Shown here piece after piece: positions 18,264 to 33,510 of a DNA stretch of 33,770 bases. Both the position numbers and the translations under genes were made by a program. Source of the stretch: a virus (lineage: Duplodnaviria; Heunggongvirae; Uroviricota; Caudoviricetes); IMG/VR virus record IMGVR_UViG_2724679140_000008, one strand, 5' to 3'. A model generated the notes under the pieces. That model saw only the letters and a program-made list of their open reading frames with translations. It had not been told where the DNA came from and searched no databases. Within the stretch, counting starts at the first letter, position 1. Every line of letters starts with the position of its first letter.

Positions 18264-18495
18264 TAAGCAAAAAAGCTCCCGAAGGAGCCTTCATTTTCAC
18301 TTTCTTAAATCTAACGACAGATGGCTAACATTTAAGTATTGTGAAATATTATCAAATGTGATCATCATTGATTTACAAAAGATACATTTTGCCCCGAAAG
18401 GATTTCTGTCAGAAACATCAAAAGATGATGTTCTATACTGAGAACCATGGCAACACGGGCATCTAAAGTGAATATGGTTTGTAATATTTTCTACC

Positions 18496-18708
18496 TCAAA
18501 GTGCCACTACATGAACAGCTGCAGGGCCTTTAGGTCCGTTCTCAATACCAAATTCGACTTCCTGATTCTCAGTTAACGTTTTGAAATCGTTGCTCTGAAT
18601 AGCTGAGAAATGCACAAACACATCTTTGCTACCATCTTTCGGCGTGATGAAACCAAAACCTTTTTCAGGGTTAAACCATTTCACTAAACCAGTCATTTTG
18701 TTAGACAT
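18496..18708 (-). CDS. cspI: Cold-shock protein, CspA family (cspI-like)
   Basis: [70 protein letters not shown], with the canonical RNP1/RNP2 cold-shock motifs. A long AT-rich leader lies upstream (18712-19070). Confidence 0.9.
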
Positions 18709-19071
18709 CATTATTACCTTTTGAAGAAGTTAGCCCTTGGGCAGAATGGTCCGAAAAAAAATATCAGAGAGAAAAACCAACAAGGAAATCTCAAGAGGTA
18801 CAAATAATAAAATTATAACAATGACTGCTTCAGATAATTTTGTAACAAACCAGAACACCATTAACGCATGATTAACCAACCATAGCAAGGATTACTTTTG
18901 TAAAGAAAAACACACGAATGAAACAATAGCTTTATTTATTAATAAAACGTGTCATTCTGTCTAATGACCTTTTATCTTACCCTTAAGATTTCAAGGATTT
19001 TGACTCATGGAAGAGTCCTTTTTATTTAAATTTCACATTCAGCGCTAAAAATAATCCGATTTAATATTAAT

Positions 19072-21910: not shown

Positions 21911-22386
21911 AAACAGCGAATCAGATCAAATAAAACGCACATTTGTTAACATTTACACAAAGTCTGCGTGGGATATTCTGAAAGAATATCCATAATGTGG
22001 AGAGAATCTATTGAAGTGCATGGTGCCGGGTGCCTCCCGGTGAATTCAGTACCAGCACCTGAATCCGCGATTATCCCATATACCTACTCGCTGATTGCCC
22101 CTCCGCACAGGGGGATTCACCATGCCAGTTTCTTTTAACAAACTCCCCGCAAACCAGAGAACAGTCAACCGCCTGAATTGTGAAGTATTTAAAAATTTCT
22201 CCCGCTAACTGATACCCGGCTAACAGTCTGGCGTTTTCTTTTTCAGCAACGGGAAAGCAACAACCACCACACCCGCCACCAGCACACTGTCAGCCAGCAC
22301 TGACATTATCCGGCTGCTGCAATGCCATTCACAAAAACAGTAAGCAATCACTTTTTACCGTAACAGGTGATAATCCAGATATGTAT

Positions 22387-22850: not shown

Positions 22851-22927
22851 TGGCGCGCTGTACTGGATTCGAACCAGTGACCGATTGCTTAGAAGGCAAT
22901 TGCTCTGTCCGGCTGAGCTAACAACGC
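22851..22927 (-). tRNA. tRNA-Arg (anticodon UCU)
   Basis: Minus-strand sequence GCGTTGTTAGCTCAGCCGGACAGAGCAATTGCCTTCTAAGCAATCGGTCACTGGTTCGAATCCAGTACAGCGCGCCA: 7-bp acceptor stem, anticodon loop CU-UCU-AA, GGTTCGAATCC T-arm, encoded CCA. Coordinates anchored on the spurious ORF 22762..23049. Confidence 0.9.
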
Positions 22928-23027: not shown

Positions 23028-23103
23028 TGGTGGCCCTTGCTGGATTTGAACCAGCGACCTGGCGATTATGAGTCGCTCGCTCTCACCACTGAGCTAAAGG
23101 GCC
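23028..23103 (-). tRNA. tRNA with CAU anticodon (Ile2-like, ileX/ileZ type; Met not excluded)
   Basis: Minus-strand sequence GGCCCTTTAGCTCAGTGGTGAGAGCGAGCGACTCATAATCGCCAGGTCGCTGGTTCAAATCCAGCAAGGGCCACCA, which closely resembles E. coli ileX as I recall it. Confidence 0.88.
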
Positions 23104-24082: not shown

Positions 24083-24439
24083 TTAATGCATTATGGGGTA
24101 AATCTTCACCCCCAGACGTCCACCAGATACTGGCTGACCACGAACGATATTGATTTCATCAAACTGCTCATCGTCCATTAACACTCCCGCATGCGTCAGC
24201 GCATCCAGCGGTGCTTTCAGGATATTGTCCAGGTCGCGACGACGCTTATCCGGTGGCTCTGCAATCACCTTTATCGCCAGCCTTCCGGACAGGCTTAATT
24301 TCAGCCGCTGCTGGCGAACAATAAGCGCCACAGCCCGGCGATAACGCTTTCCCTCCTCCGAGATAAAATATGTGCTGCCACGGCGTCGCCAGTAAGTGTT
24401 CACCGTCGGCGGGTAAGGTAAAACCAAATCTATGAGCAT
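24083..24439 (-). CDS. rusA: Holliday-junction resolvase RusA
   Basis: 118 aa; PPTVNTYW...DKRRRDLDNILKAPLDAL... matches the RusA catalytic core (DxxRRDLDN). Confidence 0.9.
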   Translation of the reverse strand: MLIDLVLPYPPTVNTYWRRRGSTYFISEEGKRYRRAVALIVRQQRLKLSLSGRLAIKVIAEPPDKRRRDLDNILKAPLDALTHAGVLMDDEQFDEINIVRGQPVSGGRLGVKIYPIMH

Positions 24440-24451
24440 CAGTCACCTCTT

Positions 24452-25540
24452 TTACCCAAGCACGCCAGTTGCAAAGGCGTGATCAAGAAAACGAAAAATT
24501 AAATCAACCTGAGAACCATGCTTTTCTTCGAACGCCAGAGGATCCGCATGAAGCTCGTTGTGATGCTCCCGACACAGCGGTAGCGTGAAAATATCGTGAG
24601 ATTTTGTCCCCATTCCGCCCTGACCATGACCAATCAGGTGATGGGGATCGTCGGCTGGCTTACCACAACACGCACACGGCTGTGTCTTCACCCAGCGTTT
24701 GTATTTCTCGTTAACCCAGCGGCGACGTTTAGGTCGTTTCATGAAAGATTCCGGAGACTCAGGATCAACGGCAATGCTGACCACCGTCTTTTCCTGTGGT
24801 GGGTTCTGTTGCTGGTGGGCGTGAGGCAGCGGCGCAAGATTTTTTGTGCGCTGTTTCAGTATGCTGGTGGCGGTCTGCTCTCCCGGTACGATGTCGCTTT
24901 CACGGTACATTGAGCGGATTTTTTCCGCACGCAACCCCAGCGAACGACGTAATACCGCTTCCGGTAGCGCGTCCGCCACCTGATTGCAGACCGCCCACCA
25001 GGATAATTCAGCCAGAGATAATTCCCGCTCCTGCGTACCGCTTATTGCGTGACGGATGACGTCAATCACCCATGCTGTCAGATTTTGTTGAGCAAGCAGC
25101 TCCAGTGATTCCGATGTCTGGTCACGCAGTTGGTTGTCGCAGTGCCAGCACAACACCATTGCGCCGGTACCATAACGGTGAATGACTGTTTCAGTGTGAT
25201 GGTAATCGCCATTAGGCCACTGGCAGGATGTAACATGACGTAATAGCCAGTCGGACAATGCGCCAACGCCGCCAGCAGCACGAATCACCCGTTCGTTACT
25301 AAAAAACGGCAGCAATGTTTTGTCTTCCGCCAGCGGCTGGCGAACGGCAGGAACGACTCCGGATGGCAGATTACGCATGCTTTTTGGTTCCGGTTCCACC
25401 AGCACTCGAGGATTATGAAATATCTGTATGGATTCACGGCCCGGCTTAAGGACCACCAGCCCAAGCTCAGGCACCAGAACAGGTCTAAGTAATACCCGCA
25501 CGTTACCTCCAGATCCGTTGCTGGAAAGTGCGGGACGCAC
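24452..25540 (-). CDS. ydfU: YdfU-like DUF968 protein with an HNH-like Cys/His motif
   Basis: 362-aa ORF with a GTG start; C-terminal ...QPCACCGKPADDPHHLIGHGQGG...CREHHNELH. The true start is uncertain because the first 38 nt overlap the upstream ORF. Confidence 0.75.
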   Translation of the reverse strand: MRPALSSNGSGGNVRVLLRPVLVPELGLVVLKPGRESIQIFHNPRVLVEPEPKSMRNLPSGVVPAVRQPLAEDKTLLPFFSNERVIRAAGGVGALSDWLLRHVTSCQWPNGDYHHTETVIHRYGTGAMVLCWHCDNQLRDQTSESLELLAQQNLTAWVIDVIRHAISGTQERELSLAELSWWAVCNQVADALPEAVLRRSLGLRAEKIRSMYRESDIVPGEQTATSILKQRTKNLAPLPHAHQQQNPPQEKTVVSIAVDPESPESFMKRPKRRRWVNEKYKRWVKTQPCACCGKPADDPHHLIGHGQGGMGTKSHDIFTLPLCREHHNELHADPLAFEEKHGSQVDLIFRFLDHAFATGVLG

Positions 25541-25781
25541 GTGGTGGGCGTTCGGAATAAGGCAGCCTGACAGAGATTATCCAGTGCCGATAGTCGAGAC
25601 TGAGAGCTTTCTTAACCTCGAACCCGCGCCTGCGGTAAGAATGAATCAGCCATTCGGCCTGTTCTGCAGTGCATGGAGGGTGCTGGAACCATTCAGACTT
25701 GAATGCGTGAGAATACCGCCCGTGCGTGCAGGCAAGAACGGGCGAATTATCAGAATTGTAATATTTTGCGTTGCGTGCCAT
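25503..25781 (-). CDS. Hypothetical protein
   Basis: ORF-track ORF of 92 aa, Cys/His/Trp-containing, overlapping the 5' end of the DUF968 ORF in another frame. Confidence 0.4.
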   Translation of the reverse strand: MARNAKYYNSDNSPVLACTHGRYSHAFKSEWFQHPPCTAEQAEWLIHSYRRRGFEVKKALSLDYRHWIISVRLPYSERPPRASRTFQQRIWR

Positions 25782-25847
25782 CGGTTTTCTCCGGTGGCAC
25801 GGTGTTACTCAGCGGGAGTTCAGCCCCGCGCAAGATTGTAGATGAGT

Positions 25848-26099
25848 TTATTCTCCTGAAAAAGCAGAAAAGCCAGCTTTTATTCCGATCTCTTTCAATG
25901 CCTGTAATGAAGTGACAAACTCACCTTCGCGCAAGATAAATCCGTCCGTGACCCGAGCATCCACAAAATTAATTAACGCAGCCCCATTCTTTCGCAAACA
26001 CATAATGCGGTAATGACTAACAAGATTTCCATTTTCAACGCACACAGCATAGAGGCCATCTTCACAAAAAATTTTACGCAGTTCTTCGATGTTCATCAT
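25848..26099 (-). CDS. rem: Rem-like small protein
   Basis: 83 aa, located between the DUF968 gene and the hok/relBE locus exactly as rem (83 aa) is in Qin. Assignment is by size and synteny. Confidence 0.55.
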   Translation of the reverse strand: MMNIEELRKIFCEDGLYAVCVENGNLVSHYRIMCLRKNGAALINFVDARVTDGFILREGEFVTSLQALKEIGIKAGFSAFSGE

Positions 26100-26220
26100 C
26101 AGAATCCTTCCGGATAATTAGCTCTCCCCTTTAAGGGACCATCCCTCTTATCCCTGCGCGCTACTTAAGTATTTTTGATTCTATTCCGGCACCGTCCAGA
26201 ACTTCAAACGCGTTGAAAAT

Positions 26221-26246
26221 AAAAACAAAAACCCGCCGAAGCGGGT
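26221..26246 (-). terminator. Intrinsic terminator after the relBE-hok unit
   Basis: Minus strand CCCGCTTCGGCGGG hairpin followed by TTTTTGTTTTTATTTTC. Confidence 0.5.
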
Positions 26247-26315
26247 GAAGTGCGGGTGCGTTGAGGATGCCTGCCACATCAGAGGTGGCGAGGGATTTCT
26301 CCCCCGCCGGGTCTC

Positions 26316-26384
26316 TTACTCCTCAGGTTCGTAAGCTGTGAAGACAGCGACCTCCGTCTGGCCGGTTCGGATTCGTACCTCGCA
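26316..26384 (-). pseudogene. hokD: hokD/relF remnant (3' fragment only)
   Basis: Minus strand encodes CEVRIRTGQTEVAVFTAYEPEE-stop, the Hok-family C-terminus, but the frame is closed by TGA two codons upstream and no frame encodes the TM helix. Confidence 0.6.
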
Positions 26385-26443
26385 GTGTCAACGCAAAGCA
26401 GAAGTGTCACCTTCGGTGCGAAACAGAGATGTCATGCTTTGGT

Positions 26444-26731
26444 TCAGAGAATGCGTTTGACCGCCTCGCTATATACTTCCGAGCGTTCTCTTTTCCCAAC
26501 AGAAATCACGAAAACGACAACTTTCTCGTCTATAACCTGGTATACAAGGCGATAGCCTGAAGACCGGAGCTTAATCTTGTAACAATCAGGCATACCACGG
26601 AGCTTGTTTGCTTCAATCCGGGGTGACTCAAGTACTTCAACCAGCTTCTTTTTCAACTGTTCACGTACCGTCGAGCCCAGCTTTCGCCATTCCTTTAGTG
26701 CCCGCTCGTCAAAATCCAGAAAATACGCCAT
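26444..26731 (-). CDS. relE: RelE mRNA-interferase toxin
   Basis: 95 aa, MAYFLDFDERALKEWRKLGSTVREQLKKKLVEVLESPRIEANKLRGMPDCYKIKLRSSGYRLVYQVIDEKVVVFVISVGKRERSEVYSEAVKRIL, essentially identical to E. coli RelE. Confidence 0.97.
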   Translation of the reverse strand: MAYFLDFDERALKEWRKLGSTVREQLKKKLVEVLESPRIEANKLRGMPDCYKIKLRSSGYRLVYQVIDEKVVVFVISVGKRERSEVYSEAVKRIL

Positions 26732-26970
26732 CAGAGTTCATCCAGCGTCACACGTACTGGCTTAGGATTACGAAGCCGTTCTTTCACTATCTCCACAAGT
26801 TCAGCATCTTCATCACTCAGGAGTGTCTGTTTGAACGGCAAGCGTTCATTGTCAGCGATATACTCGAGCATGAGACGAAGCGCTTCAGAAGGAGTTACAC
26901 CCATTTTTTCAAGCGCGGCGTAAGAACGCGCTTTAAGTTCATCGTCAATACGCAGGTTAATGCTACCCAT
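26731..26970 (-). CDS. relB: RelB antitoxin
   Basis: 79 aa, MGSINLRIDDELKARSYAALEKMGVTPSEALRLMLEYIADNERLPFKQTLLSDEDAELVEIVKERLRNPKPVRVTLDEL; its stop overlaps the relE start. Confidence 0.97.
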   Translation of the reverse strand: MGSINLRIDDELKARSYAALEKMGVTPSEALRLMLEYIADNERLPFKQTLLSDEDAELVEIVKERLRNPKPVRVTLDEL

Positions 26971-26974
26971 GTCT

Positions 26975-27035
26975 TACACCTCTTGTAATTACAAATGTCA
27001 TTACAAGTATCGCACTACAACATGCTTAGGGCAAG
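26975..27035 (-). promoter_or_regulatory. relBE promoter/operator (relO-like inverted repeats)
   Basis: Palindromic TTGTAATTACAA and TGTCATTACAAG elements immediately upstream of relB. Confidence 0.5.
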
Positions 27036-27300
27036 TCACGAAGGAAGTCAGAAAGTAGTCGTAAGAACGGTGATCACTGTCCGCTTTGTGCCAGGAGCAG
27101 CCATTGCTAAGTCCATCCTGTATTGTGCAGGTCAGCTCGCTTTTAAAGAGTCCGGCCATCATCTTACTGGTACAGACACCATATACTTTGTGACGGTCAG
27201 GCTACATATGCACAACTCAACTTATTCATCTATTTTTTGCTTTAGCATGTCAGTGTTGCTTTCTCGTCGGCGGGTGAGCGGTGACCTGACCTGTCGATAA
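26995..27300 (+). CDS. YdfV-like hypothetical ORF
   Basis: 101-aa plus-strand ORF between relB and flxA, the same size and position as ydfV in Qin; it overlaps the relB operator and its coding status is doubtful. Confidence 0.25.
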   Translation: MSLQVSHYNMLRASHEGSQKVVVRTVITVRFVPGAAIAKSILYCAGQLAFKESGHHLTGTDTIYFVTVRLHMHNSTYSSIFCFSMSVLLSRRRVSGDLTCR

Positions 27301-27452
27301 AGGAACGTAGCACGTTTTATGCAACACCCGCATGCGGCAGAAAATTATTGCCGAACGTTTACCCCTGTCAACAAGCTTTACTTTCTGAGGCGCGCCAGCC
27401 CGCGAGGAAAACAATCTGAACATCAAACAATTAATGACACAAGAAATACGAT

Positions 27453-27479
27453 TAAAGATTTTTTTGTGCATGCCGATAG
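27453..27479 (+). promoter_or_regulatory. FliA (sigma28)-type promoter of flxA
   Basis: TAAAGATT-N11-GCCGATAG against the sigma28 consensus TAAAGTTT-N11-GCCGATAA, about 25 nt upstream of the flxA RBS (AAGGAG). Confidence 0.65.
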
Positions 27480-27502
27480 TGCTTTTTTAAAAGGAGAAAT
27501 CT

Positions 27503-27835
27503 ATGTCTGTCACAATTCAGGGAAATACCTCAACCGTTATTTCAAACAACTCCGCCCCGGAAGGAACATCAGAAATAGCCAAAATCACAAGACAAATTCA
27601 GGTGCTGACTGAAAAGCTTGGGAAAATCTCATCGGAAGAGGGGATGACGACACAGCAGAAAAAAGAAATGGCTGCATTGGTACAGAAGCAAATTGAAAGC
27701 CTCAGGGCTCAACTGGAGCAGTTGTTAAGGCAGCAGGCAGAGAAAAAGAATAAAGACGCGACAGTTCAGCCTGATAAAAAAGAAGAGAAAAAAGACGATA
27801 CAAATACCGCTGGCACCATTGATATTTACGTCTAA
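27503..27835 (+). CDS. flxA: FlxA (FliA-regulated prophage protein)
   Basis: 110 aa, MSVTIQGNTSTVISNNSAPEGTSEIAKITRQIQVLTEKLGKISSEEGMTTQQKKEMAALVQKQIESLRAQLEQLLRQQAEKKNKDATVQPDKKEEKKDDTNTAGTIDIYV. Confidence 0.95.
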   Translation: MSVTIQGNTSTVISNNSAPEGTSEIAKITRQIQVLTEKLGKISSEEGMTTQQKKEMAALVQKQIESLRAQLEQLLRQQAEKKNKDATVQPDKKEEKKDDTNTAGTIDIYV

Positions 27836-27849
27836 GTGACAGCCGTATT

Positions 27850-27873
27850 GTGGCCCTCATCGGGCCACTTTTC
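27850..27873 (+). terminator. Intrinsic terminator of flxA
   Basis: GTGGCCC-tcatc-GGGCCAC followed by TTTTC, 15 nt after the flxA stop. Confidence 0.55.
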
Positions 27874-28164
27874 GCCATCAGCCTTTTCTTTAAAGACATA
27901 TTATCTTTGTATCATTTCTGATAGTTAACATTACAAGATATAAGTAATGGACGCACTCCCAATTAGTCTATTTAAATCGCCACGAGTTTAACTGACAACC
28001 CATGATCAATTATGAATTGCAACTATTTCTGTAGTCACTTTTGTGGGGACAGTCCACAAAACTGCCAACTTCCGCTTCTTGCTCTTAGCGGACATTAGCA
28101 TAGGCTATTTACCATAACGCCTCATTACGCGCACCGCCCAGACTGACTCAGCGCGTTTCTGGCA

Positions 28165-29680
28165 TATCCCCGGTAAAACAAGTAACAAACCACCCGAAAA
28201 TGAACACCAGAAACGCGACTTAAGAATCTACCCTATGAATGGATATGCACTCAACCGAATCGATCTTGGTTTCAATCTATTTTATCGGGATCAGGCTTCT
28301 TTTTAGGTAACTTCGGGGGCTTAACTTGCTGATGACTTTGCGTTCGGCGCGTAAGCCAGGGATGGTCAGCTTTAGATTTAACATAGTATTTTGAGCGTAA
28401 ATCAATACGGGCATTATCCACTCGTTCATGGACACTCTTTTCATCATCCAGTGGTATAGGCTCCGGGCCATCAACATACTTTTCCCAGCCCAGCGCTTTC
28501 CCGTCATACAGAACGTTAATTTCACCGTCAAAGTTCTCACATACAGTAACAACCGAATGCCTAAGTCGATATCCCCGGCCCTCACTGCGTACCTGAAACG
28601 CACTGCTTTTGTACTGGAAAGTGAGATTTTTAGACAGAACGCGCTTCGCCTGTAGGCTGAAGATATAACCCAGTTCCTCTTCAGAATGGTGCACATCAAG
28701 ATGAGCATTATCAGTAGTACGAGGCGACGTAGCGAACCGGTTGTTATAGGCTTCAATAAAGGTCGGCAACCATGCATTTGCTGTTTCAATATCACTGATA
28801 TTCTGAAGCCGCATTTCTTTGACCAGCCTGTCCTGTAGTGTCTGATTGGCGCGCTCTACCCGCCCTTTTGCCTGCGGGCTGTTGGCATGGATTGGCTCGA
28901 TGCCCAGTGTCTTTATCGCACGAGTGAACTGGGTCAGCTCACCTTCCCGCTCTGGGTTATTTACCCTGAATATACTGTGTCTATCAGAGTAGAGAGCGAG
29001 CGGTACGCCATGATCATTAAGGTAACCCCGGAGGGTTTCCATGTAAGCCCGGGTTGTTTAAGCAGGCACAAAACGCAACGCCATCAACGCACTGGTGGCA
29101 TCATCAATGAAAACGATCAGTGTACATCTGGGGCCTCGATTTTCAAACCAGTCATGAGGTGAGCCATCAATCTGGATCAGTTCACCGTAAGATGGTCGTC
29201 GCATGCGGCGTTGATATATACGGGCAATTTTACGACGGCGTTCACGCCATAACCCCTCTTCTATCATCCACTTTCTGAGAGTTTCAACGGATAAAGATAA
29301 ACCGTGTATCTCGCGCAATTTTTCGCACGCAAACGTAGGTCCAAAATCAGCGTAACGGCCTTTGAGGAGTGAAATTACTGTTGCTCTGAATTCAGTAGAA
29401 AAGGAATTATTAGGACGCTTTCCACGTCGGTGGGAAACCAGACCAGAAGGCCCTTCATTTCTATACCGTTGCACCAGACGTTTAACCTGCCGAATAGAAA
29501 TGCCAATGCGTGCCGCAGCTTGTTCCTGAGTAATATGTCGATTAATTGACTCCTGAATAATCTGAAGTCGGTGGAGTTCCTTATGACTCATCGTAACAGT
29601 CTCTTTGATCATGAAAAATCCCCCAGAGAATTGTCTGGGGACATTTTAGAATGGTTCAAAGGGGACATTACAGCTTGGTG
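28165..29680 (-). mobile_element. Insertion sequence carrying the interrupted transposase (boundaries approximate)
   Basis: A single transposase gene with short flanks; terminal inverted repeats could not be defined confidently by eye. Confidence 0.35.
28272..29612 (-). pseudogene. IS transposase (DDE integrase-core type with N-terminal HTH; IS481/ISNCY-like) interrupted by an in-frame TAA
   Basis: ORFs 29058..29612 (184 aa, HTH) and 28272..29042 (256 aa, catalytic region) are in the same frame (both low ends are multiples of 3) and separated only by a TAA at 29058-29060 plus 5 codons. Read through, they give about 446 aa. Confidence 0.8.
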
Positions 29681-30065
29681 TTAACAATAGCCTGCTTCTC
29701 CTTGCCTTCCGGCACTCGCGACAGATTATGTTTAGACGACTGTCGTAGCGACGTATTTCTCCGTCAGGTAATGACCAGATAAGGTCCGGATCAACCACAG
29801 CAGGTTTCTTCACCTTTGCCCTCGAGAGTTTTTTGCGGGCGTTTTGCCAGTCCTTACGCGCCTGTTCAGACGGGAATAACCCGTAACCAGAGCTGTATAC
29901 ATCGCCACTGGCAACCAGCTCTCTGGCCAGAACGCTCATCAGATATCTTGTTGCCCCAGTTTTAGCTTCCAGTTGTCGTAACGTCTCGCGCCCACTCTGG
30001 CGTACGAGTTCCACCACCTGCCCTTTAATTTTTTCCCGCTCTTCTTGTGTAAAAACTTTTGCCAC
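29646..30065 (-). CDS. Hypothetical early-region protein, possibly C-terminally altered by the IS insertion
   Basis: ORF-track ORF of 139 aa directly downstream of the replication gene; its last codons lie within about 35 nt of the transposase start. Confidence 0.45.
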   Translation of the reverse strand: MAKVFTQEEREKIKGQVVELVRQSGRETLRQLEAKTGATRYLMSVLARELVASGDVYSSGYGLFPSEQARKDWQNARKKLSRAKVKKPAVVDPDLIWSLPDGEIRRYDSRLNIICRECRKARRSRLLLTPSCNVPFEPF

Positions 30066-33453: not shown

Positions 33454-33510
33454 TTTCTGGTGACGTTTGGCGGTATCAGTTTTACTCCGTGACTGCTCTG
33501 CCGCCCTTTT
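33454..33510 (+). ncRNA. dicF: DicF small RNA
   Basis: TTTCTGGTGACGTTTGGCGGTATCAGTTTTACTCCGTGACTGCTCTGCCGCCCTTTTT, identical to the E. coli DicF sequence as I recall it, ending in its own terminator hairpin and U-run. Confidence 0.88.

What the first reader, a model, noticed from the sequence alone, without database searches (positions are those of the whole stretch)
26221..27035. relBE toxin-antitoxin intact, but the linked hok toxin is reduced to a 3' fragment
relB and relE are full length with the expected operator palindromes and a downstream terminator. Where K-12 has the 51-aa hokD/relF, only the last 22 codons (CEVRIRTGQTEVAVFTAYEPEE) remain, preceded by an in-frame TGA and no TM segment. 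This is a naturally disarmed version of the relBEF locus.
Basis: partly seen in the sequence, partly recalled or inferred. Interest (0 to 1): 0.45.

Follow-up and report, generated by a model that had tools for sequence, protein, structure and literature searches.

The report
Transposon-end deletion that kills hokD
The small membrane toxin gene hokD next to the intact relBE toxin-antitoxin pair has lost its first 99 bases, and the cut starts exactly at the tip of a 3.3-kb jumping element that carries relBE and repeatedly inserts in front of hok-type toxin genes.

Summary
relB (26731-26970) and relE (26444-26731) match K-12, with operator and terminator intact. hokD is reduced to its last 22 codons (26316-26384) by a clean 99-bp deletion at 26385|26386. 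The deletion removes the ribosome-binding site, the start codon and the membrane helix.

The allele is real but rare. It occurs in 1 of 5,426 complete E. coli genomes (BKQWHE, where PGAP already calls hokD a pseudogene) and in four metagenome or viral contigs. 1,166 genomes carry the intact junction.

The new point is the context. relBE lies inside a 3,301-bp IS1202-family (ISNCY) transposon at 26386-29686:
- It has 19/26 terminal inverted repeats with TGT...ACA ends.
- It encodes a 446-codon transposase.
- Its cargo is relBE, ydfV and flxA.

Copies are flanked by 14-16 bp target duplications at the ribosome-binding site of hokD, of pndA and of other hok homologues, on prophages and plasmids. 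This explains how the classic relB-relE-hokD operon arose.

The deletion begins exactly at the element's right terminus, shows no microhomology, and removes the adjacent target duplication while the far copy survives. These are the marks of a transposase-made adjacent deletion. That step is inferred, not shown.

The parts
26221..26246 (-). Intrinsic-terminator-like hairpin plus T-run. It ends the relBE(-hokD) transcript and is retained.
   Evidence: stem ACCCGCTTCGGCGGGT, tail TTTTGTTTTT. Identical in GB089.
26316..26384 (-). hokD remnant: codons 30-51 (CEVRIRTGQTEVAVFTAYEPEE) plus stop. It has no ribosome-binding site, start codon or membrane helix.
   Evidence: matches PF01848 positions 25-42 only. 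PGAP calls the same stretch a hokD pseudogene in BKQWHE.
26385..26386 (.). Deletion junction. 99 bp are missing relative to K-12/GB089, with zero microhomology, and the break is flush with the transposon terminus.
26386..29686 (.). 3,301-bp IS1202-family (ISNCY) transposon carrying relE, relB, ydfV, flxA and the transposase gene.
   Evidence: Its ends are defined by 15-16 bp target duplications in GB089 and in IncI1 plasmid p7_33_46A-2, and by an empty site in an ordinary IncI plasmid. 46 copies with both ends were recovered. At least 80% of its length is present in 759 complete E. coli genomes, and it occurs on plasmids of several genera.
26386..26411 (+). Right terminal inverted repeat (IRR), TGTCAACGCAAAGCAGAAGTGTCACC. 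It lies within the 58 bases between the terminus and the relE stop codon.
   Evidence: 19/26 match to IRL, P about 4e-7.
26444..26731 (-). relE toxin gene, intact. It reads outward across IRR with no terminator in between.
26731..26970 (-). relB antitoxin gene, intact. Its stop overlaps the relE start.
26982..27007 (.). relBE operator repeats in the promoter region.
   Evidence: This stretch is identical to K-12.
26995..27300 (+). ydfV, a passenger ORF of unknown function.
   Evidence: No Pfam match.
27503..27835 (+). flxA, a passenger gene.
   Evidence: PF14282 FlxA, E = 1.9e-14.
28272..29612 (-). Transposase gene, 446 codons. In this window it is broken by a private GAA-to-TAA nonsense change at 29058-29060 (codon 185). 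The annotated 'ydfW' (28272-28421) is its last 49 codons.
   Evidence: NF033594 ISNCY transposase 465 bits, with HTH and rve_3 domains. The ORF is intact in BKQWHE, GB089 and the other uninterrupted 3,301-bp copies; 19 in all read through.
29661..29686 (-). Left terminal inverted repeat (IRL), TGTTAACACCAAGCTGTAATGTCCCC read inward.
29687..29701 (.). Surviving copy of the 15-bp target duplication ATAGCCTGCTTCTCC. Its reverse complement is GGAGAAGCAGGCTAT, the hokD ribosome-binding site through 'AT' of the ATG.
   Evidence: The partner copy beside IRR is present in GB089 and K-12 but lost in the window.
29702..29715 (.). 14-nt remnant of the canonical hok leader (reverse complement GTGCCGGAAGGCAA). 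The rest of the leader, including sok, is absent.

Best explanation
Shown from sequence:
- hokD has lost 99 bp. These cover its ribosome-binding site, start codon and the whole membrane-spanning half, so no Hok peptide can be made.
- relBE, its operator and the shared terminator are untouched, so the type II module should work as in K-12.

Shown by comparison:
- relBE is cargo of a 3,301-bp IS1202-family transposon (26386-29686).
- relE sits 58 bases from the right terminus and reads outward.
- The element inserts immediately after the ...GGCAA motif of hok-family leaders and duplicates 14-16 bp, including the hok ribosome-binding site.
- Each insertion cuts hok off from its own promoter and mok/sok control and makes it the third gene of the relBE transcript. 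That arrangement is the classical relBEF operon.

Inferred:
- In the ancestor of this window, the right end of the element was joined by its own transposase to a new target 99 bp away inside hokD. This would be an intramolecular transposition, that is, an adjacent deletion.
- The event discarded the intervening DNA together with the adjacent copy of the target duplication. The element itself and the far-side duplication were left intact.
- The allele then spread at low frequency, picked up an IS beside relE in one sub-lineage, and recombined into another prophage background.
For: The deletion is defined to the base and has no microhomology.

The element's ends rest on independent evidence:
- A 16-bp duplication CATCATAGCCCCTCCA flanks the same unit in an IncI1 plasmid, and an ordinary IncI plasmid shows the empty site.
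- A 15-bp duplication flanks it in GB089 and in many IMG/VR prophages. Some of these keep the complete hok leader next to IRL; L082 is 100% identical over 260 nt.
- Further duplications are seen at other hok genes: L017/L030 15 bp, L110 14-15 bp, L112 16 bp.
- The terminal repeats match 19/26 with TGT...ACA ends. These are the features Harmer and Hall give for the IS1202 family (PMC10132070).
- The transposase matches NF033594 at 465 bits.

Of the 46 copies recovered with both ends, the four window-type copies have a hok-type duplication beside IRL and none beside IRR; L109 has mismatched flanks and L065 sits at a non-hok site. The transposase ORF is intact in the deletion carrier BKQWHE.

A single origin is supported. 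The window and BKQWHE are identical over 24085-29059. L005 and L010 share one IS insertion. L005 is a recombinant.

Literature: relBE and relF/hokD are co-transcribed (PMC3598666). The HokD coding sequence is toxic when expressed, and a truncated Hok is not (bioRxiv 10.1101/2025.08.07.668861).
Against: - No experiment shows that this element transposes or makes adjacent deletions. The transposition mechanism of the IS1202 family is unsettled; circular forms have been reported for ISKpn21.
- The new junction (CTGCGAGGTACGAAT) does not resemble the element's usual target, which follows GGCAA. A strictly site-specific transposase would not be expected to choose it.
- Only one such event is seen, so a chance coincidence of a spontaneous deletion end with the terminus cannot be excluded. 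My rough estimate for that coincidence is about 1 in 100.
- The window's own transposase copy carries a nonsense codon. That change is private to the window and probably arose later.
- Whether HokD is translated at all from the native relBEF transcript is not established. The loss may therefore have no phenotype.
Confidence: 0.7

Rival explanations
1. A spontaneous, transposase-independent deletion (replication slippage or illegitimate recombination) removed 99 bp. Its left end coincides with the transposon terminus only by chance.
For: Only one independent event is observed: all seven carrier loci share the junction, and their flanks are consistent with common descent. The new junction does not look like the element's preferred target. 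The window's transposase is a pseudogene.
Against: There is zero microhomology at the junction, unlike typical slippage deletions. The endpoint is exact to the base at a terminus defined independently by target duplications, which I estimate at roughly 1 chance in 100. The element end is perfectly preserved while the flank is lost. The transposase is intact in the other deletion carrier, BKQWHE.
Confidence: 0.22
2. The hokD fragment reflects an independent insertion of the relBE transposon into codon 29 of hokD rather than a deletion.
For: The right end of the element abuts hokD codon 29/30 directly.
Against: The other end of the element is still flanked by the duplication made at the hokD ribosome-binding site, plus 14 nt of hok leader, exactly as in GB089. 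The 5' half of hokD is not found beyond IRL. The 7 kb around the locus differs from GB089 at only two bases.
Confidence: 0.02
3. The missing 99 bp is an assembly or sequencing artefact.
For: None beyond the rarity of the allele (1 of 5,426 complete genomes).
Against: The identical junction occurs in six independent sources with different flanking polymorphisms, an added IS in two of them and a recombinant flank in one.
Confidence: 0.01

Closest known systems
relB-relE-hokD (relBEF) operon of the E. coli K-12 Qin prophage
   Same: The gene order, RelB and RelE proteins, operator, 58-nt relE-proximal spacer, 3' untranslated region and terminator are the same. Sequence is identical over 26386-27139. 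hokD likewise has no sok RNA.
   Different: The window lacks 99 bp (ribosome-binding site, start codon, codons 1-28 and part of codon 29 of hokD). It also keeps the full transposon: K-12 derivatives retain only the first 2,071 bp and have lost most of the transposase gene and IRL.
IS1202 family insertion sequences (ISNCY group; ISEsa1, and passenger-carrying 'tIS' such as ISKpn21), as described in PMC10132070 and bioRxiv 10.1101/2022.12.17.520857
   Same: It has a single large transposase with N-terminal HTH domains and a DDE core (NF033594). Its ends are TGT...ACA with imperfect terminal repeats of about 26 bp. Its target duplications of 14-16 bp are close to the 16-17 bp subgroup. Some family members carry passenger genes and show strict target choice.
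   Different: It is twice the usual length and carries four passenger genes, including a complete type II toxin-antitoxin operon that reads out of the right end. Its target is the translation-initiation region of hok-family toxin genes, not a dif/Xer site. The papers read report no target for the long-duplication groups and no duplication for ISEsa1.
Canonical prophage and plasmid hok/sok loci (hokD with sok in strains C9, F5505 and O121; pndA of IncI plasmids)
   Same: The hok coding sequence and 3' untranslated region are the same. These loci are the empty target sites.
   Different: They keep the leader, mok and sok (Rfam RF01794, 107-117 bits) contiguous with hok. In the window the transposon separates them, the sok side is deleted down to 14 nt, and the hok 5' half is also gone.
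Transposon-mediated adjacent deletions (classical behaviour of IS1, IS10, IS26 and Mu/Tn3-type elements; from general knowledge, not checked here)
   Same: The deletion starts exactly at the element terminus. The element is intact, one copy of the target duplication is lost, and there is no microhomology.
   Different: This has not been demonstrated for any IS1202-family element, and only one event is seen here.
Inactivated chromosomal hok loci of E. coli K-12 (Pedersen and Gerdes 1999, recalled from memory; hokD described as altered by a major rearrangement)
   Same: This is another naturally inactivated chromosomal or prophage hok gene. About 5% of unique hok coding sequences are reported to be under 40 aa.
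   Different: Here the inactivation is a defined 5' deletion flush with a transposon end. The 'rearrangement' of hokD itself can now be read as a transposon insertion.

Membership tests
Hok/Gef type I toxin (PF01848) | Complete ORF of about 50 aa with its own ribosome-binding site and start codon | tested here: not met
   13 nt upstream of the ATG, the ATG itself, codons 2-28 and 2 nt of codon 29 are deleted. An in-frame TGA precedes the remnant.
Hok/Gef type I toxin (PF01848) | N-terminal membrane-spanning helix | tested here: not met
   The remnant aligns only to profile positions 25-42 of 42; K-12 HokD aligns to 1-42. No other hydrophobic ORF is present.
Hok/Gef type I toxin (PF01848) | Conserved C-terminal part | tested here: met
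   The 22 residues are identical to HokD residues 30-51. PF01848 E = 8.9e-10.
[quoted passage not shown] | cis-encoded Sok antisense RNA and mok leader upstream of hok | tested here: not met
   Rfam sok (RF01794) is found in canonical hokD loci L007 and L008, but not in the K-12-type locus or anywhere in the window. Only 14 nt of leader remain, beyond IRL.
RelBE type II toxin-antitoxin | RelB/DinJ antitoxin followed by an overlapping RelE/StbE toxin gene | tested here: met
   NF008412 at 133 bits (cut-off 96) and TIGR02385 at 54.7 bits (cut-off 27.9). The genes overlap at 26731.
RelBE type II toxin-antitoxin | Autoregulatory operator repeats in the promoter | tested here: met
   12-nt inverted and direct repeats lie at 26982-27007. 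The region is identical to K-12.
RelBE type II toxin-antitoxin | RelE mRNA cleavage activity neutralised by RelB | not testable with these tools
   Inferred from protein identity with K-12 RelB and RelE.
IS1202 family (ISNCY) transposable element | Large transposase with HTH domains and a DDE (RNase H-like) core | tested here: met
   NF033594 at 465 bits (cut-off 250), plus Pfam HTH_28 and rve_3. In the window the ORF is interrupted at codon 185; it is intact in relatives.
IS1202 family (ISNCY) transposable element | Imperfect terminal inverted repeats of about 24-26 bp with 5'-TGT...ACA-3' ends | tested here: met
   19/26 matches and TGT/ACA ends. Family criteria are from PMC10132070.
IS1202 family (ISNCY) transposable element | Target site duplication of characteristic length, and filled versus empty sites | tested here: met
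   Duplications of 14-16 bp occur at five different hok-family sites. Empty sites are seen in L015 (pndA) and in L007-L009 (hokD). In the window only the IRL-side copy survives.
IS1202 family (ISNCY) transposable element | Demonstrated transposition | not testable with these tools
   Mobility is inferred from copies more than 99.5% identical on prophages and on plasmids of several genera.
Transposase-mediated adjacent deletion | Deletion endpoint flush with the element terminus, element intact, adjacent duplication lost, no microhomology | tested here: met
Transposase-mediated adjacent deletion | Dependence on the transposase | not testable with these tools
   This needs a genetic assay. Only one natural event is available.

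The most novel reading that the evidence does not exclude
The relBE operon of E. coli K-12 and its relatives is the cargo of a previously undescribed site-specific IS1202-family transposon. The element homes to the translation-initiation region of hok-family type I toxin genes on prophages and plasmids. Insertion cuts hok from its sok/mok control and puts it under the relBE promoter, which is the origin of the textbook relBEF operon. The window captures this element remodelling its target by an adjacent deletion that finishes off the captured toxin. On this reading, ISEsa1 may have been recorded without a target duplication because its true right end lies beyond relBE.
Probability: 0.5. Interest if true: 0.75.

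Novelty: new variant of a known kind. Interest (0 to 1): 0.6.

Why it matters
On its own, a truncated hokD is a minor pseudogene already flagged by automated annotation. Its exact breakpoint, however, exposes something larger.

- **Origin of relBEF.** One of the most studied toxin-antitoxin operons travels on a transposon that repeatedly chooses the same few bases in front of hok-type toxin genes. That gives a concrete origin for the relBEF operon and for the rearrangement of hokD recalled from Pedersen and Gerdes 1999.
- **A target for long-duplication IS1202 elements.** A 2023 survey found no target for this branch of the family.
- **One addiction module invading another.** A mobile element carrying a toxin-antitoxin pair invades and rewires a second one.
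- **Annotation.** 'ydfW' is the tail of the transposase gene. PGAP splits an intact 446-codon ORF into a 'partial' transposase plus ydfW.
- **Interpreting relBE knock-outs.** The downstream hok gene is there only because of where the transposon landed, so relBE deletion strains and relBE comparisons across strains should be read with that in mind.

Tried and rejected
- **Hairpin-mediated deletion.** RNA folds of the K-12 and window relE-to-terminator segments showed that the long-range pairing of GCGUUGA with UCAACGC is kept. The deleted block is not a closed stem, so this idea was dropped.
- **Recurrent deletion.** The OBWF contig (L005) has different flanks, which at first suggested a second origin. 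It proved to be a recombinant, with a K-12-type hokD 3' coding part joined to an O121-type 3' UTR. It shares an IS insertion with L010, so a single origin fits.
- **Window equals BKQWHE.** Rejected. The two are identical only over 24085-29059 and are 89-99% identical elsewhere. The source of the window was not found in any collection searched.
- **Spacer as native pnd or hok leader.** I tested whether the relE-hokD spacer belongs to pnd/hok leaders, which would explain the shared boundary by homology. Ordinary IncI plasmids lack it.
- **Internal right end.** I looked for a right end that would make a 1.6-kb simple IS. The best candidate is only a weak 17/26 match at 27105.
- **Species-representative genomes.** A scan for the deletion junction found nothing.
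- **Literature.** Searches for a described relBE transposon or hok-targeting IS found nothing. ISfinder and TnCentral could not be consulted. Pedersen and Gerdes 1999 and Ramisetty and Santhosh 2016 were not readable here.

Full report
**1. The observation**

On the - strand the region reads relB (26731-26970, 79 aa), relE (26444-26731, 95 aa) and a 58-nt spacer. After the spacer come TGA CAC and then 22 codons, CEVRIRTGQTEVAVFTAYEPEE, with a stop (26316-26384). A 3' untranslated stretch follows, ending in a hairpin-plus-T-run terminator at 26246-26221. The operator repeats lie at 26982-27007.

RelB and RelE score well above the curated cut-offs of their NCBIfam models. The window has no mismatch to a K-12-like O16:H48 strain between 26386 and 27139.

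Alignment with that strain and with strain GB089 shows a single difference: 99 bp are missing between 26385 and 26386. The missing block is GGAGAAGCAGGCT, the ATG, codons 2-28 and two bases of codon 29. There is not one base of microhomology at the junction.

The remnant covers only positions 25-42 of the 42-position Hok/Gef profile, whereas K-12 HokD covers 1-42. No other Hok-like ORF exists, and Rfam finds no sok RNA in the window.

**2. Is it real, and how common is it?**

A 40-base probe across the junction hits one of 5,426 complete E. coli genomes: strain BKQWHE, from a human in Blantyre, Malawi. PGAP already annotates that stretch as a hokD pseudogene 'missing N-terminus'. The intact junction is present in 1,166 genomes, including MG1655.

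The window is not BKQWHE. The two are identical only between 24085 and 29059 and diverge elsewhere. The closest intact locus, GB089, differs at two bases in 7 kb.

Exact-pattern scans found the junction in four more sources:
- two metagenome contigs, OBWF01000254.1 and ERZ1027608.6;
- two IMG/VR contigs, UViG_3300028991_000022 and UViG_2703718843_000009.

It was found in none of the species-representative genomes.

Two of these contigs (L005, L010) share an IS3-family insertion abutting the relE stop codon. L005 is also a recombinant whose 3' UTR and downstream flank come from an O121-type hok locus. Six independent sources with nested secondary changes mean a genuine, heritable, rare allele with one origin.

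**3. The breakpoint is not arbitrary**

In prophages that carry hokD without relBE (strains C9, F5505, O121), hokD is preceded by a canonical leader with a strong Rfam sok match. Their similarity to the K-12 arrangement stops at ...GGCAA|GGAGAAGCAGG. That is within one base of the left edge of the window's deletion.

The same 58-nt spacer ends at the same base in front of other hok-family genes:
- pndA on an IncI1 plasmid;
- different hok genes on IncHI2 and IncHI1B plasmids of Cronobacter and Klebsiella.

Comparing the IncI1 plasmid with an ordinary IncI plasmid settled the matter. A 3.3-kb block is inserted and flanked by a 16-bp direct duplication, CATCATAGCCCCTCCA, which is single-copy in the ordinary plasmid. 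The block runs from TGTCAACGCAAAG... through relE, relB, ydfV, flxA and a transposase gene to ...GGTGTTAACA.

In GB089 the same block is flanked by the 15-bp duplication ATAGCCTGCTTCTCC. Its reverse complement is GGAGAAGCAGGCTAT, the hokD ribosome-binding site through 'AT' of the start codon.

**4. The element**

In window coordinates the element is 26386-29686, 3,301 bp.
- **Ends.** The two ends match as inverted repeats at 19 of 26 positions (P about 4e-7) and read TGT...ACA.
- **Transposase.** The gene (28272-29612, - strand) has 446 codons. It matches the ISNCY transposase model NF033594 at 465 bits and contains HTH and integrase-core domains.
- **Family criteria.** These features, and the long duplication, fit the IS1202 family as described by Harmer and Hall (PMC10132070). 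That description gives TGT/ACA ends, 24-26 bp imperfect repeats, and duplication classes of 3-5, 16-28 or 0 bp. The related preprint reports a 16-17 bp class.
- **State of the ORF.** In the window the transposase ORF carries a private GAA-to-TAA change at codon 185 (29058-29060). It is intact in BKQWHE, GB089 and the other uninterrupted 3,301-bp copies; 19 in all read through.
- **ydfW.** The annotated 'ydfW' is simply the last 49 codons of this ORF.
- **Distribution.** 759 complete E. coli genomes hold at least 80% of the element. K-12 derivatives keep only its first 2,071 bp. Copies more than 99.5% identical sit on plasmids of Salmonella and several Enterobacter species, and variants with other cargo occur in Citrobacter and Enterobacter.

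**5. Target choice**

I scanned species-representative genomes and IMG/VR for the right-end sequence. This added 94 new loci; together with loci already held, 106 right-end occurrences were analysed.

In nearly all of them the terminus abuts the ribosome-binding site of a hok-family gene. At least eight different genes are involved: HokD, PndA, and several MK(L/M)P...-type and other Hok proteins from Enterobacter, Klebsiella, Citrobacter, Pseudocitrobacter, Pantoea and Buttiauxella.

Duplications of 14-16 bp are verified at five different hok sites. Many prophage copies still have the complete canonical leader next to the left end; L082 is 100% identical over 260 nt. Those are simple insertions into an intact hokD/sok locus.

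The leader-side cut always falls right after ...GCAA (...GGCAA in most). Almost all insertions have relBE pointing into hok. One is reversed (L025) and a few lie at non-hok flanks (L016, L020, L032, L065).

relE lies 58 nt from the terminus with no terminator, so whatever lies outside is co-transcribed. This matches published evidence that relBE and relF/hokD form one transcript (PMC3598666).

The relBEF operon is therefore a transposon-target fusion. Earlier work noted that relBE 'integrated' into hokD (PMC6379469). None of the papers I could read mentions a transposon vehicle, and the IS1202 survey states that no target was found for the long-duplication groups.

**6. How the window allele arose**

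In the window, the flank beyond the left end is exactly as in GB089: the duplication copy at 29687-29701 followed by 14 nt of hok leader. The flank beyond the right end has lost its duplication copy and the next 84 bases of hokD. This rules out a fresh insertion into codon 29.

Four features point to joining of the element's right end to a nearby target by its own transposase, that is, an intramolecular transposition giving an adjacent deletion:
- the deletion starts at the last base of an intact transposon end;
- there is no microhomology;
- only the adjacent duplication copy is lost;
- the transposase gene is intact in a sister carrier.

That behaviour is classical for other element families (general knowledge). 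It is inferred here, not shown.

Points against the inference: only one event is available, the new junction does not resemble the preferred target, and the family's mechanism is unsettled. The main rival is a spontaneous deletion whose end coincides by chance, which I rate at about 0.2.

**7. Consequences**

- **hokD.** Without a ribosome-binding site, start codon or membrane helix, no HokD can be made. The HokD coding sequence is toxic when expressed, and a truncated Hok is not.
- **relBE.** The operon keeps its promoter, operator, both genes, the 3' region that pairs back onto the spacer and the terminator. It should therefore behave as in K-12.
- **Fitness.** Whether the loss matters is unknown. 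In the K-12 arrangement hokD already lacks sok and mok, and its native translation is undocumented.

**8. Verdict**

The finding is confirmed and its interpretation is supported. As a pseudogene it is ordinary and already annotated.

Its value lies in the breakpoint. It reveals a relBE-carrying IS1202-family transposon that targets hok genes and apparently deleted part of its captured target. I rate this a new variant of a known kind, with moderate-to-high interest. The caveats are that ISfinder and TnCentral could not be checked and that no transposition experiment exists.

Noticed in passing
window 29058-29060 (- strand codon 185 of the transposase gene 28272-29612): A private GAA-to-TAA nonsense change splits the 446-codon transposase ORF in this window. 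BKQWHE, GB089 and the other uninterrupted 3,301-bp copies have GAA and an uninterrupted ORF (19 in all).
   Followed up: yes
window 28272-28421 and 28542-29612; same positions in L004 and L001: PGAP annotates a 'partial ISEsa1-family transposase, missing C-terminus' plus a separate 'ydfW'. In BKQWHE and GB089 these are one continuous 446-codon ORF, so ydfW is the transposase C-terminus. On the E. asburiae plasmid (L110) the same ORF is annotated as an intact transposase.
   Followed up: yes
L005 1-208 (OBWF01000254.1) and L010 3423-3506 (IMGVR_UViG_3300028991_000022): A sub-lineage of the deletion allele has an IS3-family element (end TGAACCGCCCCGG...) inserted at the relE stop codon. Depending on the duplication length, this may extend or preserve the RelE C-terminus. 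Both contigs end inside the IS.
   Followed up: partly
L005 272-460 versus L009 (O121 strain RM8352): The OBWF contig is a mosaic. It has a K-12-type spacer and hokD 3' coding part (with the deletion) joined just after the stop codon to an O121-type 3' UTR and a YgiW/YdeI-family gene instead of rem. No complete E. coli genome has that combination with an intact hokD.
   Followed up: yes
window 29687-29730 and ORF 29646-30065 (-): Beyond IRL only 14 nt of hok leader remain and sok is gone. This is a second deletion that is not flush with the element. The DUF977 ORF now runs through the leader remnant and the duplication copy into IRL, so its C-terminus is probably not native.
   Followed up: partly
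L111 2158-2224 (E. hormaechei plasmid NZ_CP085771.1): IRL and IRR lie head to tail, separated by exactly 15 bp (CAGGCCTTCTTCTCC, a hok ribosome-binding-site segment). This is either a tandem insertion into the regenerated target or an integrated circle-junction-like structure.
   Followed up: no
L109 (IMGVR_UViG_2534681836_000019): One element copy has the pndA-type leader and duplication at IRL but the hokD-type duplication and gene at IRR. This suggests recombination between a plasmid copy and a prophage copy of the element.
   Followed up: no
L025 2565 onward (Citrobacter portucalensis); L016, L020, L032, L065, L029: L025 has the element at a hok target in the opposite orientation. Four loci have IRR flush against non-hok DNA. 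L065 may have a 6-bp repeat. L029 has IRR only 3 nt before a hokE-like ATG. These may be further end-flush rearrangements.
   Followed up: partly
window 27105-27130: An inverted-repeat-like sequence (17/26 match to IRL; weak, roughly 0.1 expected by chance in the scan) lies 7-11 nt from where the IncHI plasmid copies lose similarity to the element (27094-27098). This hints that the IRR-relE-relB segment may once have been a separate module.
   Followed up: partly
window 33455-33506, 21964-22154, 18450-18866, 22854-22927, 23031-23103: Rfam gathering-score hits elsewhere in the prophage: DicF RNA, STnc100 sRNA, a cspA-type thermoregulator and two tRNA genes (Arg and Ile by the RefSeq annotation of the related strain).
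   Followed up: no
window 26328-26338 (- strand, ...GCTTACGAACC...): The TAC (Tyr47) codon in a UACG context is retained in the remnant. A recent preprint says the equivalent hok codon is recoded to Cys by TadA A-to-I editing. The editing site survives although the gene is dead.
   Followed up: no
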